Positions 4,185 through 43,074 of a stretch of 64,000 bases of DNA are shown in pieces. The first letter of the stretch is position 1, and each line of letters opens with the position of its first letter. This DNA comes from a virus: the IMG/VR virus record IMGVR_UViG_3300046616_000188. One strand, given 5' to 3'. Below the pieces are notes generated by a model. It was not told the DNA's origin and did no database searches. It saw only the letters and a program-made list of their open reading frames with translations. The position numbers and the translations under genes were made by a program.

Positions 4185-5519
4185 ATGTCAATTACTTTAA
4201 CTGATCACCAAAACGACGCTGTTAAAAAAGTTGTGACTTGGTTTAAAAAGGCACAAACCGAAGAAGACCCGGATCACTGCTACCTAGGCGGTTTCGCCGG
4301 AAGCGGTAAAACGGCTATTCTGCCTTTTATCGTTGAGGCTTGCGGTCTAACTACCAGTGAAGTGTTTGTAGTCACCCCTACGGGGAAGGCTGCTCGTGTC
4401 GCGGGCAAGAAGCTACGTGATGCGGGCGTCGATATCATACCTACTACGATCCACTCAGCGATCTATCGCCCCAAAGCGTTGAAAGCTGAAGTTTTAGAAT
4501 ATAAAATTGCTGACTTGGGTCGTGCCTTAAGCTCAGCCGCTGAATTCAGCGCTCCAGATGTTTTTTACGAAGGTAAAAAGTACAGCATCAAAGACGCTCA
4601 GAGAACTTTAAAACTTTTAAACGAAGATTTGGATAAGGCTTACATCAGCACTGATGGTCCGACATGGCACCTTAACACGGAAAGCTCTATCAGAGAAGCG
4701 TCTCTCATTATCGTTGACGAAGCATCTATGGTTGGCGAGCTTATCGCTAACGATCTTCATTCATTCGGTATTCCAATTCTAGCCATTGGCGATCCGGGGC
4801 AGCTGCCTCCTGTAAAAGATAGTCATGGGCTCTGCATCGGCAAGCCTCACGTTTTCCTAACTGAGATTCACCGTCAAGCCAAGGATAATCCTATTATCGC
4901 TTTGGCCACGCATATCAGAGAAGGTGGAGAATTGGAAGTTGGCAAATGGGGCGACTGTGTCGATATCGTGAGACGACGTGACGATGAAGATACTCTCGAC
5001 ATGGATAAAGAAGTCCAAGTCATTTGTGGCACGAATACAACACGTTGGAAGCTGACAAAGAAAATCCGCAAAGCAGCAGGGTACGATCTTGTTGGCCCGA
5101 TGGCTGGCGAACCTCTTATCATGCGTAAAAATTCAAGAGTTGCTAAAGAACTTGTCAATGGCATGTTCCTTACAAATAATAAAGATTACGAATTGGTTGA
5201 GGGTCGTGCCACGTTCTACATGAATGCGACGGATGAAGATGGCGTGGTCAGAAATATCACGGTGTGCCAAGCTCTGTTTGAGGAGCATTACGGAAAGCAA
5301 GCCGGATATTTTACCGGTGAGAAAAAAGAAGTTTTTGAAGCCAAAAAGAAACATCACCTTGTCGATTGGGGCCATGTCATTACGGGCCATCTCAGTCAGG
5401 GATCGCAGTGGAACCACGTAGTGGTACATGACGAAGGTTATGTCTTCAAAGACGACATGGATAAGTGGCGCTATACCGCCGTTACTCGTGCCGCAGAAAA
5501 ACTTACAGTGGTAATTTAA
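4185..5519 (+). CDS. SF1B RecD2/Dda-like helicase
   Basis: GFAGSGKT Walker A, IIVDEASMV, GDPGQLPPV, LTEIHRQ, SQGSQW, YTAVTRA. Confidence 0.93.
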   Translation: MSITLTDHQNDAVKKVVTWFKKAQTEEDPDHCYLGGFAGSGKTAILPFIVEACGLTTSEVFVVTPTGKAARVAGKKLRDAGVDIIPTTIHSAIYRPKALKAEVLEYKIADLGRALSSAAEFSAPDVFYEGKKYSIKDAQRTLKLLNEDLDKAYISTDGPTWHLNTESSIREASLIIVDEASMVGELIANDLHSFGIPILAIGDPGQLPPVKDSHGLCIGKPHVFLTEIHRQAKDNPIIALATHIREGGELEVGKWGDCVDIVRRRDDEDTLDMDKEVQVICGTNTTRWKLTKKIRKAAGYDLVGPMAGEPLIMRKNSRVAKELVNGMFLTNNKDYELVEGRATFYMNATDEDGVVRNITVCQALFEEHYGKQAGYFTGEKKEVFEAKKKHHLVDWGHVITGHLSQGSQWNHVVVHDEGYVFKDDMDKWRYTAVTRAAEKLTVVI

Positions 5520-37664: not shown

Positions 37665-38144
37665 TTAATCCTTAGTTTTATTTTTAGATCCGAATGTTCC
37701 AGTTTGTGAGTGGCAATTTGGACATAAAAATCTTAGATTTTTTATTTCGTTATTTTTCCAATTACCGTCTATATGATCTACGTGCAAAGTTATCGGGTGC
37801 CCGCACCAGTCCGATATATCACATTCGGAACACTTATATTCAATACCAGATTCCAGAAGTCCTCTTTTTAGGAATTTTGTAGCTACTCTGGTTGATATAT
37901 TTTCATCAAATATCAAGATTTCGGATAGATTTTTTTGTTTGTTTGGAAACTTTTTACCTGTACTATAATTCTTGCCATTCAAAAAATGTGAAGTATCTAA
38001 TCCTAGATTCTTTATTCTTCTACTTATATGGGCGTGCGAGCCGCCAGCCATTCTCATTCCTAGTTTTCTGAGGACATCTGATACAGTATCACACTCTGCT
38101 ACTAACTTTGTTATATCTTCGTCGGAATATTTATATCTTGGCAT
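37665..38144 (-). CDS. HNH homing endonuclease
   Basis: CSEC...LHVDHIDGNWKNNEIKNLRFLCPNCH; start moved out of tRNA-Leu. Confidence 0.92.
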   Translation of the reverse strand: MPRYKYSDEDITKLVAECDTVSDVLRKLGMRMAGGSHAHISRRIKNLGLDTSHFLNGKNYSTGKKFPNKQKNLSEILIFDENISTRVATKFLKRGLLESGIEYKCSECDISDWCGHPITLHVDHIDGNWKNNEIKNLRFLCPNCHSQTGTFGSKNKTKD

Positions 38145-38172
38145 TTTATTTTTTTTATTTAATTTATTTAAT

Positions 38173-38257
38173 TGGTGCGGGTAGAGGGACTCGAACCCCC
38201 ACGCACAAGGCACAAGTTTCTAAAACTTGCGTGGCTACCAAATTACACCATACCCGC
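38173..38257 (-). tRNA. tRNA-Leu (TAG)
   Basis: CAAGT-TT TAG AA-ACTTG, long V arm, CCA. Confidence 0.92.
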
Positions 38258-39299: not shown

Positions 39300-39386
39300 T
39301 GGCTGGGGAGGCCGGATTCGAACCGGCGACGGGCTTTCGCCAATGGATTAACAGTCCATCCCCTGCTACCGCTCGGGTACTCCCCA
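39300..39386 (-). tRNA. tRNA-Asn (GTT) with long variable arm
   Basis: ATGGA-CT GTT AA-TCCAT; V arm GGC GAAA GCC; G73; CCA. Confidence 0.85.
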
Positions 39387-39812: not shown

Positions 39813-40424
39813 TTAAATGCTAGTCTTACCTGTCGCCATGGCACGATCTTCGTCACTGAAACCTAAATTGGCATCAGAGCCCCACTGCTCATAATACATA
39901 CTGCGGTTTGCAACAGATTTAAATGCCTGCTCGTAATTACCTTTGGTCATGTTAAGAGTTGAGCCGGTTAGAACACCTAGCCCGCTGCTCTGGCCGAATG
40001 CATCAAAATCAGCGCCGATGAATACAACGTCGTAACCAGTTGTTTTGAAGTTATCAAGAATTGTTTTCGTGCCATTCTTATCAAATTCGCGGCTCGCATT
40101 TTCAAGGCCGTCAGTAACGATAATGATTGAAGCCTTCTTAGGAGCCTTAAGTGTTAGAAGCTGATTCAGCGCGCCAATCGCATCGAACAATGGCGTCATA
40201 CCACGTGGCAATACTTCTGTGGCTGAAATCGGATTCCAATCCTTAAGCTTTACGTCTTTTCTAATAACCTTAAACGGTTCTTGATTATCAAAAACTGTTA
40301 CAGATACTGAAGCCTTAGTCTTAGCTTCTTTCAAAGCTGTGACATAAGCATTTACAGCGCCGATAGTTTCATCCCAACGAGACTGCATCGAACCGGAACG
40401 GTCAATCAAAATTTCTACTTGCAT
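39813..40424 (-). CDS. von Willebrand factor A domain protein
   Basis: MIDAS DRSGSM, GMTPLFDAIG, IVTDGLENAS. Confidence 0.92.
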   Translation of the reverse strand: MQVEILIDRSGSMQSRWDETIGAVNAYVTALKEAKTKASVSVTVFDNQEPFKVIRKDVKLKDWNPISATEVLPRGMTPLFDAIGALNQLLTLKAPKKASIIIVTDGLENASREFDKNGTKTILDNFKTTGYDVVFIGADFDAFGQSSGLGVLTGSTLNMTKGNYEQAFKSVANRSMYYEQWGSDANLGFSDEDRAMATGKTSI

Positions 40425-40449: not shown

Positions 40450-40541
40450 TGGCGGAAGGGGTGGGATTCGAACCCACGGAACCCTCTCGGGTCCTTCGGT
40501 TTTCAAGACCGACTCAATCGGCCAGACTCTGACACCCTTCC
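40450..40541 (-). tRNA. tRNA-Ser (TGA)
   Basis: TCGGT-CT TGA AA-ACCGA; long V arm; CCA. Confidence 0.92.
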
Positions 40542-40545
40542 ATTA

Positions 40546-40627
40546 TGGAGCACGCCGAGGGACTCGAACCCCCATTCTCGTTCCAGTTAGCTTAGTCATC
40601 GTTCGTAGCGATGCGGCATAGGCGTGC
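40546..40627 (-). tRNA. Non-canonical tRNA-Arg (ACG)-like gene without a D-arm
   Basis: GCACGCC/GGCGTGC acceptor, CATCG-CT ACG AA-CGATG, GGGGG-TTCGAGT-CCCTC T arm, CCA; only 7 nt where the D-arm should be and a 23-nt variable region. Confidence 0.7.
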
Positions 40628-40632
40628 ATTAA

Positions 40633-41010
40633 TTAAATATGTGTAATCTTTTTCGCATCTCTGAGGAAAACTTCTGCGCCAATATCCTGCGGCTCAAAAT
40701 ATTCTCTAACGAGATTAATTACTTCATTTTCATCATAGTCTTTACAGCTGAAAATGTCAAGATAGAAATCACCGTCATGATCGACAAAGTGACCAGTAAT
40801 ATTTGACGTTTCGATCATTTGAATAAATGAAATGCCTGCCTTGACCGGATCGTGAGTGGCGAAACGCTCGATCCAGAGCGGGCCGTATTTAACCATGTCA
40901 ATCTTTACCACTAGCTCATCAACGAACTTAGCGATGTGTTCTTTAGACGTTACGGCAGGGATAGACCCGGCCCGCGCATCAATAATTAGGTGTTTTCCCC
41001 AATACTGCAT
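40633..41010 (-). CDS. speD: S-adenosylmethionine decarboxylase-family pyruvoyl enzyme
   Basis: WGKHLIIDA, IETSNITGH (autocleavage Ser), YLDIFSCK. Confidence 0.85.
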   Translation of the reverse strand: MQYWGKHLIIDARAGSIPAVTSKEHIAKFVDELVVKIDMVKYGPLWIERFATHDPVKAGISFIQMIETSNITGHFVDHDGDFYLDIFSCKDYDENEVINLVREYFEPQDIGAEVFLRDAKKITHI

Positions 41011-41893: not shown

Positions 41894-41976
41894 TGGTGCT
41901 GGACACAGGATTCGAACCTGCGACGTGGGATTCTTCCTTACAAGAGAAGCGCTTTCGACCGCTCAGCCAATCCAGC
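41894..41976 (-). tRNA. tRNA-Thr (TGT) with extended variable region
   Basis: CTTCT-CT TGT AA-GGAAG; 11-nt V region; CCA. Confidence 0.85.
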
Positions 41977-42455: not shown

Positions 42456-42529
42456 TGGTGGGATTACCCGGAATCGAACCGAGGTAAAAGAGTTTAGAAT
42501 TCCCTGCTCTACCATTGAGCTATAATCCC
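42456..42529 (-). tRNA. tRNA with CUA anticodon (putative amber suppressor; alternative register TCT/Arg)
   Basis: Perfect acceptor, D and T arms; anticodon arm GGGAA-TT CTA AA-CTCTT is weak. Confidence 0.65.
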
Positions 42530-42597: not shown

Positions 42598-42678
42598 TGG
42601 TCTGAGTGGCAAGGATTTGAACCTGCGACCTTCCTCTTGAATGGTCGAGGATGCTCTGTCCCGCTGAGCTACACCCAA
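42598..42678 (-). tRNA. tRNA-like gene with a 10-nt anticodon loop (undetermined or pseudo-tRNA)
   Basis: TCCTC-GACCATTCAA-GAGGA; normal D arm; extra U in the T stem; CCA. Confidence 0.65.
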
Positions 42679-42711: not shown

Positions 42712-43074
42712 TCAAGAAAAATGTTTTTCCATGTGACACCTACAACAAAGTAGTATACATTTTTCTGCTTCGTTCAAGTAAGTTTCCCATGAAAGTTTGA
42801 CCGCGTCGGAAGCGTTCATTTCTTTATTAGGATCAGGATGGTGCCACTCCAATGCGGCTCCTATTTTGTCATACCCACATTCTTGACAACCAATGTTTAT
42901 TTTATGATTGCGCATCCTTTGTGAATACAAATGGTGCCGTAAGTTTTTTCGTTCTTGTTTAGAAAGTCCTTCGGGCATACAATCAAAACAAAATTTTCTG
43001 TTTGTTCCACCTGAGCCTTTTCTATTTGGTTCAAAATTTTTTGAGCAATAATCACAAAACATTATCATTTCCAA
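42712..43074 (-). CDS. HNH endonuclease with N-terminal Cys cluster
   Basis: CDYC...CFDC; GCQECG...LEWHHPDP...KCILLCCRCH. Confidence 0.88.
   Translation of the reverse strand: MEMIMFCDYCSKNFEPNRKGSGGTNRKFCFDCMPEGLSKQERKNLRHHLYSQRMRNHKINIGCQECGYDKIGAALEWHHPDPNKEMNASDAVKLSWETYLNEAEKCILLCCRCHMEKHFS

What the first reader, a model, noticed from the sequence alone, without database searches (positions are those of the whole stretch)
40546..40627. Arm-rearranged tRNA-Arg(ACG): D-arm absent, D-loop-like sequence moved into the variable region
Seen: perfect 7-bp acceptor stem, CCA, canonical T arm and a perfect anticodon arm with the typical Arg loop CU-ACG-AA. Only 7 nt (UAUGCCG) join acceptor and anticodon arms, while the 23-nt variable region contains AGCUAACUGGAACGAG, very like the D-arm of ordinary tRNA-Arg (AGCUCAGCUGGAUAGAG) including the GG that contacts the T loop. 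Perfect stems argue against simple decay. Known: D-armless tRNAs are a mitochondrial oddity. Inference: a new tRNA topology that rebuilds the elbow from the variable side, or a tRNA mimic acting as a decoy for anticodon nucleases or for TadA/ArgRS. Standard scanners would likely miss it or call it a pseudogene.
Basis: partly seen in the sequence, partly recalled or inferred. Interest (0 to 1): 0.8.

Follow-up and report, generated by a model that had tools for sequence, protein, structure and literature searches.

The report
Phage arginine tRNA with rewired D-arm
This 82-base phage gene is very probably a working arginine tRNA that keeps every standard tRNA part but has half of its D-arm placed after the anticodon arm, a non-cloverleaf layout shared by many unrelated phages, mostly missed by tRNA finders, and not described in any paper I could find.

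Summary
On the minus strand at 40546-40627 lies an 82-nt tRNA-like gene: 7-bp acceptor stem, 7-nt connector, perfect anticodon arm (loop CUACGAA, anticodon ACG), 23-nt segment holding a tRNA-Arg-type D loop, T arm, and U73-CCA. ARAGORN and the Rfam tRNA model both miss it.

It is not decay or chance. I collected 51 distinct homologues from viral contigs and three more from cultured phages (Stenotrophomonas RAS14, Microbacterium Pumpernickel, Streptomyces Mildred21).

- All four helices covary.
- All anticodons are arginine (ACG, UCG, CCG, UCU, CCU).
- U8, A9, U13, A14 and G18 are invariant; G19 and A20 nearly so.
- The 15:48 tertiary pair covaries (A:U 49, G:C 3).

The D stem is not absent. 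It forms between the 5' connector and the bases just before the relocated D loop, enclosing the anticodon arm. Segment order is 1-9, 22-43, linker, 10-21, linker, 48-76.

Many 17-25-tRNA phage arrays, including this window, have no canonical tRNA-Arg. Where one coexists, its anticodon differs in 13 of 15 loci.

Most likely this is a functional, segment-permuted tRNA-Arg reading CGU/CGC, the phage's commonest arginine codons. Expression and charging are untested.

This scan has noted the same architecture before on other phage DNA. I found no published description.

The parts
40546..40627 (-). Whole 82-nt gene for a segment-permuted tRNA-Arg(ACG)
   Evidence: Sequence. CM R1 scores it 113.5 bits and R2 91.7 bits. 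Near-identical homologues lie in L006:3379-3460 and L008:3378-3459, with compensatory changes in three stems.
40621..40627 (-). Acceptor stem, 5' strand (GCACGCC, positions 1-7)
   Evidence: Pairs with 40550-40556. All 7 pairs covary across the family, 99.5% of cells paired.
40619..40620 (-). U8 A9
   Evidence: Invariant in 51/51 members.
40615..40618 (-). UGCC, equivalent of the D-stem 3' strand (22'-25'). G23'-C12 and C24'-G11 pair; U22'/U13 and C25'/A10 are mismatches in this copy
   Evidence: Covariation at alignment columns 13:71 (CG36 GC7 AU3 UA3 UG1) and 15:69 (CG30 GC14 UA2 AU1). An alignment-free fixed-offset test gives 85/102 paired against 53+-3.9, 0 of 10000 shuffles.
40614..40614 (-). 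G26, opposite A44 (G.A as in ordinary tRNAs)
   Evidence: Read from the sequence. Calling it position 26 is inference.
40597..40613 (-). Anticodon arm CAUCG-CUACGAA-CGAUG; anticodon ACG at 40604-40606
   Evidence: All 5 pairs have changes on both sides. The family's anticodons are all arginine.
40593..40596 (-). Linker ACUA (A44 plus 3 nt) between the anticodon stem and the relocated D-stem strand
   Evidence: This linker is 3-5 nt in all members, and 4 nt in 39 of 51.
40589..40592 (-). AGCU, equivalent of the D-stem 5' strand (10-13); U13 is invariant
40581..40588 (-). Relocated D loop AACUGGAA (A14 A15 C16 U17 G18 G19 A20 A21), including the ArgRS identity base A20
   Evidence: A14 and G18 51/51, G19 49/51, A20 50/51, A21 44/51. 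A canonical phage tRNA-Arg(ACG) at L181:3861-3939 has the same AACUGGAA inside its normal D loop.
40574..40580 (-). Connector CGAGAAU ending in U48, the partner of A15
   Evidence: The 15:48 pair is A:U in 49 rows and G:C in 3, never unpaired. Connector length is 3-10 nt across the family.
40557..40573 (-). T arm GGGGG-UUCGAGU-CCCUC
   Evidence: 99.6% of cells paired, and 4 of 5 pairs have changes on both sides.
40550..40556 (-). Acceptor stem, 3' strand (GGCGUGC, positions 66-72)
40546..40549 (-). Discriminator U73 and encoded CCA
   Evidence: CCA is encoded in about 46 of 51 members; the discriminator is U in 23, G in 20, A in 7, C in 1.
40450..40541 (-). Context: canonical tRNA-Ser(UGA), 4 nt (UAAU) downstream of the CCA
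   Evidence: ARAGORN, Rfam 52.4 bits, spacer. The same neighbour follows the element in L008.
40633..41010 (-). Context: S-adenosylmethionine-decarboxylase-like gene ending 5 nt upstream of the tRNA; holds a sigma70-like promoter match at 40760-40732
   Evidence: Pfam PF02675 at 6.8e-14; PHROG 3125 at 1.3e-30; promoter match 11/12 (consensus match only).

Best explanation
The element is a gene for a functional elongator tRNA-Arg(ACG) whose D arm is segment-permuted. In standard numbering the RNA runs 1-7, U8 A9, 22-25, 26, anticodon arm 27-43, A44 plus a 3-nt linker, 10-13, D loop 14-21, a 7-nt connector ending in U48, T arm 49-65, 66-72, U73, CCA.

SHOWN:
- The acceptor, anticodon and T helices and a short D-type helix between the 5' connector and the bases just before the relocated D loop are all kept by compensatory changes.
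- The core nucleotides U8, A14, R15:Y48, G18, G19, A20 and A21 are conserved.
- The family carries only arginine anticodons.
- It substitutes for, or complements, canonical tRNA-Arg in phage tRNA arrays.

INFERRED:
- The RNA is transcribed with the array.
- It is cut by RNase P and trimmed at the encoded CCA.
- The D-type helix stacks on the anticodon stem as one long hairpin. The relocated D loop reaches the T loop (G18-psi55, G19-C56), restoring the normal L shape. Every new chain junction (9 to 22, 44 to 10, 21 to 48) joins residues that are already neighbours in the canonical fold.
- Host ArgRS charges it through A20, C35 and G36. TadA converts A34 to inosine.
- It then reads CGU, CGC and CGA, the first two being the phage's most used arginine codons.

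A plausible origin is an internal duplication of the D-arm-to-anticodon-arm segment followed by loss of complementary halves. Why the layout persists, whether as a neutral but tolerated form or as an escape from a tRNA-targeting factor, is open.
For: - Sequence and parts.
- Homologues in syntenic position (AdoMet-decarboxylase-like gene, element, tRNA-Ser, VWA gene) show compensatory changes in three stems: G5-C68 to U-A, U-A to G-C in the anticodon stem, and several in the T stem.
- There are 51 distinct members in alignment A5. 94.6% of cells are paired against 63.2% in shuffles; the covariation score is 0.835 against 0.228, and 0.08-0.17 when partners are slid.
- D-type helix: columns 13:71 and 15:69 each show four Watson-Crick pair types. 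A fixed-offset test without any alignment gives 85/102 paired against 53+-3.9.
- The Levitt pair 15:48 is A:U in 49 rows and G:C in 3, with none unpaired.
- Invariants: U8, A9, U13, A14 and G18 in 51/51; G19 49; A20 50.
- All anticodons are arginine (ACG 27, UCU 17, CCU 4, UCG 2, CCG 1), although the pattern did not constrain the anticodon.
- Arrays of 17-25 tRNAs hold rewired Arg but no canonical tRNA-Arg: L166, L183, L179, L049, L141, L117, L042, L081, L227 and this window. Where both kinds occur, the anticodons differ in 13 of 15 loci. Loci with two or three members carry different anticodons; the one exception is L150, with two UCU copies, one of which has an 8-nt loop.
- Window codon use per 1000: CGT 12.8, CGC 11.1, AGA 11.7, CGA 2.8, AGG 3.2, CGG 0.3.
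- Arginine identity in bacteria is A20, C35, U/G36 and A/G/U73 (PMC9976931), and all are present here.
- E. coli HisRS, EF-Tu and the ribosome accept even a tRNA with no D arm at all (PMC11551756).
Against: - There are no expression, processing, charging or decoding data for any member.
- In this copy the D-type helix has only two Watson-Crick pairs (G-C, C-G), flanked by U/U and C/A.
- The minimum-free-energy fold is not better than shuffles (z = -0.92).
- Alignment A5 was fitted to a model that already contained the D-type helix, which biases. The alignment-free test offsets this.
- The three-dimensional argument rests on textbook tRNA geometry, not on a model.
- Two loci (L181, L186) hold a canonical tRNA-Arg with the same anticodon as the rewired one.
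Confidence: 0.75

Rival explanations
1. A tRNA mimic or decoy that is not used in decoding. It would soak up an anticodon nuclease, a tRNA-modifying enzyme (TadA) or ArgRS, or serve some other tRNA-like role, with the rewired core preventing normal use on the ribosome.
For: The architecture departs from every tRNA known to work in bacteria, and standard models mostly miss it. tRNAs are recognised targets of antiphage immunity, and phages carry counter-measures (abstracts of PMC12851939 and PMC13096335; PMC12475279).
Against: A decoy for an anticodon nuclease needs only the anticodon stem-loop. Here the acceptor and T arm lengths (7/5), the encoded CCA, the T-loop sequence, the 15:48 pair, G18/G19 and the ArgRS determinant A20 are all conserved. 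Members fill the arginine slot of arrays that lack canonical tRNA-Arg, and they avoid duplicating canonical isoacceptors. Five different arginine anticodons occur, often two or three per phage, which is the pattern of a decoding set.
Confidence: 0.1
2. A precursor that is rearranged at the RNA level, by cutting and religation as with permuted or split tRNA genes, into an ordinary cloverleaf tRNA-Arg.
For: Permuted and split tRNA genes that mature into canonical tRNAs are known in red algae and archaea (my own knowledge: Soma et al. 2007; Randau et al. 2005). One note of this scan reports a tRNA-Phe gene with an unclassified insert elsewhere in the same genome (e1-5811963, untested).
Against: The acceptor ends are already in normal order with an encoded CCA. 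No bulge-helix-bulge or intron-like motif flanks the displaced segment. The D-type helix between the connector and bases 10-12 covaries in the permuted arrangement, so selection acts on the RNA as encoded. A canonical product would also need a 3' D-stem strand after A21, and there is none: the connector there varies from 3 to 10 nt.
Confidence: 0.03
3. A decayed tRNA pseudogene, a recombination scar between tRNA genes, or a local misassembly.
For: tRNA finders do not call it. Phage tRNA arrays are recombination-prone and studded with HNH endonuclease genes.
Against: The same arrangement occurs in 51 distinct sequences from independent metagenomes and in three cultured phage genomes, with compensatory changes in every helix.
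Confidence: 0.01

Closest known systems
Canonical bacterial and phage class I tRNA-Arg(ACG) (Rfam RF00005), for example the ordinary copy at L181:3861-3939
   Same: Shared features: 7-bp acceptor stem, 5-bp anticodon stem with loop CUACGAA, 5-bp T stem with a UUCGA-type loop, encoded CCA, D-loop sequence AACUGGAA with A20, U8, A14, the 15:48 pair, and G18 G19.
   Different: The D-stem 5' strand and the D loop lie after the anticodon arm instead of before it. The secondary structure is therefore a three-way junction with a composite D/anticodon hairpin, not a four-way cloverleaf. RF00005 gives no hit for the window copy. It scores only 6 of 22 tested members, at 29.5-39.9 bits, against 41-73 bits for neighbouring canonical tRNAs.
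D-armless mitochondrial tRNAs (metazoan mt-tRNA-Ser) and the engineered E. coli 'mini HisT'
   Same: A short single-stranded connector joins the acceptor and anticodon stems. Both show that translation can use non-cloverleaf tRNAs (PMC7609411; PMC11551756).
   Different: Those RNAs have lost the D loop and its G18/G19-T-loop contacts, and they adopt a relaxed or Y shape. This family keeps a full D loop, a D-type stem and all core tertiary nucleotides, only in a different order.
Circularly permuted tRNA genes of Cyanidioschyzon merolae and split tRNA genes of Nanoarchaeum (my own knowledge)
   Same: The order of tRNA segments in the gene differs from the cloverleaf order.
   Different: In those cases the permutation or split is removed during maturation and the mature tRNA is canonical. 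Here the termini are normal, the permutation is internal, and covariation indicates that the permuted RNA itself is the selected structure.
allo-tRNAs and other tRNAs with 8/4 or 9/3 acceptor/T arrangements (Mukai et al., PMC5389517)
   Same: Natural non-standard tRNAs found in bacteria and their phages by mining metagenomes (abstract).
   Different: Those keep the four-arm cloverleaf order and change only helix lengths. This family keeps helix lengths and changes segment order.
tRNA-like RNAs such as mascRNA (RF01684) and viral tRNA-like structures
   Same: Acceptor/T-arm minihelix with a reduced region in place of the D arm. mascRNA was the only Rfam model to align the whole element (13.5 bits, E 6.1).
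   Different: That score is far below gathering (42.5). This element has a full anticodon arm with arginine anticodons and sits in a tRNA array.

Membership tests
tRNA (class I elongator, Rfam RF00005) | 7-bp acceptor stem, discriminator and 3' CCA | tested here: met
   GCACGCC/GGCGUGC, U73, CCA. 99.5% of cells paired across the family.
tRNA (class I elongator, Rfam RF00005) | 5-bp T stem with 7-nt T loop U54 U55 C56 R57 A58 | tested here: met
   GGGGG-UUCGAGU-CCCUC. 99.6% paired.
tRNA (class I elongator, Rfam RF00005) | 5-bp anticodon stem, 7-nt loop with U33 and purine 37 | tested here: met
   CAUCG-CUACGAA-CGAUG. All 5 pairs have changes on both sides.
tRNA (class I elongator, Rfam RF00005) | D arm as a hairpin between position 9 and position 26 (four-way cloverleaf) | tested here: not met
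   Only 7 nt separate the acceptor and anticodon stems. The D loop lies after the anticodon arm.
tRNA (class I elongator, Rfam RF00005) | Core tertiary nucleotides U8, A14, R15:Y48, G18 G19, A21 | tested here: met
   All are present, though in permuted order. Conservation is 44-51 of 51; 15:48 covaries A:U/G:C.
tRNA (class I elongator, Rfam RF00005) | Score at or above the family's gathering threshold (29 bits) | tested here: not met
   No RF00005 hit for the window copy even at E<=10. Six of 22 relatives pass weakly.
tRNA (class I elongator, Rfam RF00005) | Aminoacylation and decoding on the ribosome | not testable with these tools
   Only indirect evidence: members fill the arginine slot in the arrays and their anticodons complement canonical copies.
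Bacterial tRNA-Arg identity set | A20 in the D loop | tested here: met
   The A directly after G18 G19 (40582). 50 of 51 members have it. The determinant is as given in PMC9976931.
Bacterial tRNA-Arg identity set | C35 and G36 or U36 | tested here: met
   Anticodon ACG here. All members are NCG or NCU.
Bacterial tRNA-Arg identity set | Discriminator A/G73 (U73 also listed for bacteria) | tested here: inconclusive
   U73 here. Across the family: U 23, G 20, A 7, C 1. Table 1 of PMC9976931 lists A/G73 and U73.
D-armless (mitochondrial-type) tRNA | Loss of the D loop and of the G18 G19 contacts with the T loop | tested here: not met
   A full D loop AACUGGAA is retained and conserved.
Permuted or split tRNA genes that mature to a cloverleaf | 3' half encoded before the 5' half, or halves in separate genes, joined at processing motifs | tested here: not met
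   The acceptor strands are in normal order with CCA at the 3' end. The permuted arrangement itself covaries.

The most novel reading that the evidence does not exclude
A natural, widespread, non-cloverleaf tRNA architecture works in bacterial translation. On this reading it is kept in phages because moving the D-stem strand and D loop behind the anticodon arm makes phage tRNA-Arg invisible or resistant to a factor that recognises or cuts ordinary tRNA-Arg through its D-arm or variable-loop connectivity. That factor could be a host defence nuclease or the phage's own host-shutoff nuclease. ArgRS, EF-Tu and the ribosome would still accept the rewired tRNA.
Probability: 0.25. Interest if true: 0.9.

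Novelty: new variant of a known kind. Interest (0 to 1): 0.8.

Why it matters
Textbooks and recent work state that all known bacterial (cytosolic) tRNAs are cloverleaves that differ only in arm sizes (PMC11551756). This family would be a natural counter-example. Its segment order is changed, yet every tertiary-contact nucleotide is preserved. That implies the L shape, and not the cloverleaf connectivity, is what ArgRS, EF-Tu, RNase P, TadA and the ribosome require.

There are also practical consequences.
- Standard tRNA finders miss most copies. ARAGORN made no correct call on any of 59 (its single overlap is a spurious tRNA-Leu call), and Rfam missed 16 of 22. Phage tRNA repertoires are therefore systematically short of arginine tRNAs, and codon-usage or host-prediction analyses inherit that error.
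- The layout is a ready-made scaffold for orthogonal tRNA engineering.
- Members exist in cultured phages of Stenotrophomonas, Microbacterium and Streptomyces, so the question can be tested directly at the bench.

Tried and rejected
- Whole-genome search: no genome is held for this window.
- Megablast of the 7-kb tRNA region against INPHARED found no match. blastn of the 301-nt and 82-nt queries hit only ordinary tRNA parts, apart from Stenotrophomonas phages CM1 and RAS14.
- The first loose pattern returned mostly chance matches and had to be filtered with a covariance model.
Only 2 of 120 stretches were real members: L241, a Blastocatellia MAG contig with 25 tRNAs in 8 kb, and L354. I therefore cannot say how often cellular genomes or prophages carry the family.
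- The nearest cultured relatives of the window phage by portal protein are at most 50% identical: Microcystis phage Mwe-JY26, Erythrobacter vB_EliS-L02, Rhodobacter RcXuper, Sphingobium Lacusarx and Roseobacter DSS3P8. They give only about 30-bit cross-hits to ordinary tRNAs, so the family is patchy and not lineage-bound.
- A relaxed structural parser found no non-arginine tRNA with this layout in the 355+ loci; all non-Arg hits were mis-parses.
- A hairpin-type D stem within the 23-nt segment (CU/AG) is rejected. It is broken in L006 and L008 (G to A), and the 3' side varies in length.
- Pairing of U8-A14 and A9-U13 as plain Watson-Crick pairs with a bulged position 22' cannot be told apart from the canonical-type U8-A14 contact, because those bases never vary.
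- Thermodynamic folding is uninformative.
- Six literature searches and two reviews gave no description of this layout.
- TAG recoding was considered because of the CUA-anticodon tRNA. ORF lengths give no sign of it.

Full report
**1. The observation**

The reverse complement of 40546-40627 reads GCACGCC UAUGCCG CAUCG CUACGAA CGAUG ACUAAGCUAACUGGAACGAGAAU GGGGG UUCGAGU CCCUC GGCGUGC U CCA. The acceptor stem has 7 perfect pairs. The anticodon stem has 5 perfect pairs, with an arginine-type loop and anticodon ACG. The T arm is standard, with one G-U pair. U73 and CCA are encoded. Seven nt join the acceptor and anticodon stems, and 23 nt join the anticodon and T stems.

ARAGORN finds 17 tRNAs on the same strand between 38173 and 44617, but not this one. 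The Rfam tRNA model finds nothing here even at E<=10. The predicted fold energy is not better than that of shuffled sequence (z = -0.92), so this single sequence proves little by itself.

**2. Setting**

The window is an uncultured phage of 44% G+C with standard stop codons. It has no close relative in INPHARED. Its portal protein is at most 50% identical to those of large siphophages of Alphaproteobacteria and of a Microcystis phage.

The element lies inside a tRNA array interspersed with small ORFs and two HNH endonuclease genes. It starts 5 nt after an S-adenosylmethionine-decarboxylase-like gene. It ends 4 nt before a canonical tRNA-Ser(UGA), which is followed by a VWA-domain gene. A TTGACA-17-TATGAT match lies about 105 nt upstream on the same strand. 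That is a consensus match only.

The array has no canonical tRNA-Arg.

**3. Homologues**

Searching viral contigs with the two flanking proteins gave syntenic loci. These carry the same 82-nt element at L006:3379-3460 and L008:3378-3459. They differ from the window copy by compensatory changes in three stems: G-C to U-A in the acceptor stem, U-A to G-C in the anticodon stem, and several in the T stem. The two connectors are almost unchanged.

A covariance model of the three helices (R1) was run over loci fetched with two degenerate patterns. A second model, R2, also contained the D-type helix. Together they gave 51 distinct full-length members, at 45-99 bits and E 1e-7 to 1e-20.

Cultured phages also carry members.

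| Phage | Locus | Anticodon | Annotation in the record |
|---|---|---|---|
| Stenotrophomonas phage RAS14 (and CM1) | L355:1488-1567 | ACG | none |
| Microbacterium phage Pumpernickel | L358:971-1051 | UCU | none |
| Streptomyces phage Mildred21 | L357:963-1040 | UCU | 'tRNA-OTHER' |

The window phage's nearest cultured relatives have none, so the distribution is patchy.

**4. Structure**

Pair counts on alignment A5 cover 53 distinct rows, two of which are not members. They give 94.6% of cells paired against 63.2% in shuffles. The covariation score is 0.835, against 0.228 in shuffles and 0.08-0.17 when partners are slid. Changes on both sides occur in 20 of 21 pairs.

Besides the three obvious helices, two positions of the 5' connector pair with the two bases immediately 5' of an invariant U-A that opens the D-loop-like sequence.

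| Columns | Pair counts |
|---|---|
| 13:71 | CG 36, GC 7, AU 3, UA 3, UG 1 |
| 15:69 | CG 30, GC 14, UA 2, AU 1 |

A third pair forms in a subset of members (CGG:CCG, CUC:GAG, ACC:GGU, CGC:GCG, CCC:GGG). A5 was fitted to a model that contained this helix, so I repeated the count with fixed offsets and no alignment. That gave 85 of 102 cells paired against 53+-3.9, with 0 of 10000 shuffles as high.

In standard numbering the connector is U8 A9 + 22'-25' + 26. It is 7 nt long in 43 of 51 members. The segment after the anticodon arm is N44 plus a 2-4-nt linker, then 10-13, then A14 R15 N16 Y17 G18 G19 A20 A21, then 3-10 nt ending in Y48.

U8, A9, U13, A14 and G18 are invariant. G19 is kept in 49 members, A20 in 50 and A21 in 44. 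Position 15 and the base before the T stem covary as A:U (49) or G:C (3) and are never unpaired. That is the signature of the Levitt pair.

A canonical tRNA-Arg(ACG) in one of the same contigs carries AACUGGAA inside a normal D loop. So the D stem is not missing. Its 3' strand sits before the anticodon arm, and its 5' strand plus loop sit after it.

The rest is inference from textbook tRNA geometry. The strand 22-25, 26, 27-31 is continuous in any tRNA. U8 stacks directly above pair 13:22. Position 44 lies directly below pair 10:25. A21 lies next to 48. Each new junction therefore links residues that are already neighbours, and the number of stacked layers between anticodon and elbow is unchanged.

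**5. Function**

All 51 members have arginine anticodons: ACG 27, UCU 17, CCU 4, UCG 2, CCG 1. The pattern put no constraint on the anticodon. A relaxed parser found no other specificity with this layout among the roughly 555 tRNAs of the same loci.

The bacterial arginine determinants A20, C35 and G/U36 are all kept (PMC9976931). Ten arrays of 17-25 tRNAs, including this window, hold a rewired tRNA-Arg and no canonical one. In 13 of 15 loci with both kinds the anticodons differ. Loci with several rewired copies carry different anticodons, except L150, which has two UCU copies, one with an 8-nt loop.

CGU and CGC, read by I34-modified tRNA-Arg(ACG), are the phage's commonest arginine codons. 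E. coli HisRS, EF-Tu and ribosomes accept even a D-armless tRNA without adaptation (PMC11551756).

I therefore read the element as a working tRNA-Arg, with confidence 0.75. Transcription, RNase P and 3' processing, arginylation, A34 deamination and decoding are all inferred.

**6. Rivals**

- **Pure decoy or mimic.** This would not need CCA, A20, the 15:48 pair or complementary anticodon sets (0.1).
- **RNA-level rearrangement to a cloverleaf.** This is contradicted by covariation of the permuted helix and by the lack of a 3' D-stem strand after A21 (0.03).
- **Pseudogene or misassembly.** This is excluded by the comparative data (0.01).
- **Why the layout is kept is open.** tRNAs are frequent targets of antiphage nucleases, one of which cuts a variable loop (PMC12851939 and PMC13096335). 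T5 tRNAs differ from host tRNAs mainly around the D loop (PMC12475279). Escape from such a factor is therefore a reasonable idea, but untested (0.25).

**7. Comparison and novelty**

The element works like a class I tRNA-Arg but fails two defining features of the family as modelled. It lacks a D hairpin between positions 9 and 26, and it does not reach the RF00005 gathering score. Six of 22 relatives reach that score, weakly, at 29.5-39.9 bits. ARAGORN gave one spurious overlap in 59 members.

It differs from mitochondrial D-armless tRNAs, which have lost the D loop (PMC7609411). It differs from permuted or split tRNA genes, whose products are canonical. It differs from allo-tRNAs, which change helix lengths and not segment order (PMC5389517).

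A 2024 paper states that all known bacterial tRNAs are cloverleaves. Six full-text searches found no description of this layout.

This scan has noted the same architecture before on other phage DNA: Felix O1-like, T4-like, Seunavirus and Streptomyces phages. It also noted a 90-nt UCU form elsewhere in this same genome. I reached the D-stem reading before seeing those notes. I could not check the same-genome copy, because no genome is held.

**8. Verdict**

- The element is a new variant of a known kind.
- Interest is 0.8.

Noticed in passing
window 42456-42529 (-): A well-formed tRNA with anticodon CUA (amber-suppressor type). ARAGORN labels it 'Pyl' and Rfam tRNA scores it 61.5 bits. A counterpart lies at L006:987-1060, and L008:442-517 instead has a UCA-anticodon tRNA. 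ORF lengths give no sign that TAG is recoded; TAG ends 4 of 49 long ORFs.
   Followed up: partly
window 42603-42677 (-): A tRNA-like sequence just below the Rfam tRNA threshold (28.2 bits) and not called by ARAGORN. Its anticodon stem UCCUC/GAGGA closes a 10-nt loop, GACCAUUCAA.
   Followed up: partly
window 39300-39386 (-) and 41894-41976 (-): tRNA-Asn(GUU) is 87 nt with a hairpin extra arm (GGCGAAAGCC), like a class II tRNA. tRNA-Thr(UGU) is 83 nt with a roughly 10-nt variable region. The Asn genes of L006-L008 are 75-79 nt.
   Followed up: partly
window 37665-38213 (-) and 42712-43074 (-): Two HNH endonuclease ORFs sit inside or at the edge of the tRNA array. The first, as listed, overlaps the 3' end of tRNA-Leu.
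   Followed up: partly
window 44674-44646, 44164-44136, 40760-40732, 39425-39397 (-): Near-consensus sigma70-type promoter matches (10-11 of 12) lie on the tRNA strand, several just upstream of tRNA genes. The total number of matches is not above the shuffled expectation.
   Followed up: no
L150:5533-5617 (+): This family member has an 8-nt anticodon loop (UGUUCUAA). It sits beside two other rewired Arg tRNAs and two canonical ones in the same contig.
   Followed up: no
L044:6036-6505 (-), L163:9760-10120 (+), L066:1567-1736 (-): Other structured RNAs lie close to rewired tRNA-Arg genes in viral contigs: a GOLLD RNA (159.5 bits), a tmRNA (87.6 bits) and a manA RNA (65 bits).
   Followed up: no
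L241 (JAWVEB010000045.1, Blastocatellia MAG contig of 139 kb), member at 4746-4825: This 8-kb stretch holds 25 ARAGORN tRNAs plus one rewired tRNA-Arg(UCU). It looks like a phage-type array inside a contig binned as bacterial; whether it is a prophage or a mis-binned phage was not resolved.
   Followed up: no
window 39813-40424 (-) and 40633-41010 (-): A VWA-domain protein gene and an S-adenosylmethionine-decarboxylase-like gene are embedded in the tRNA array. Both are syntenic with the rewired tRNA in related contigs L001-L003 and L006-L008.
   Followed up: partly
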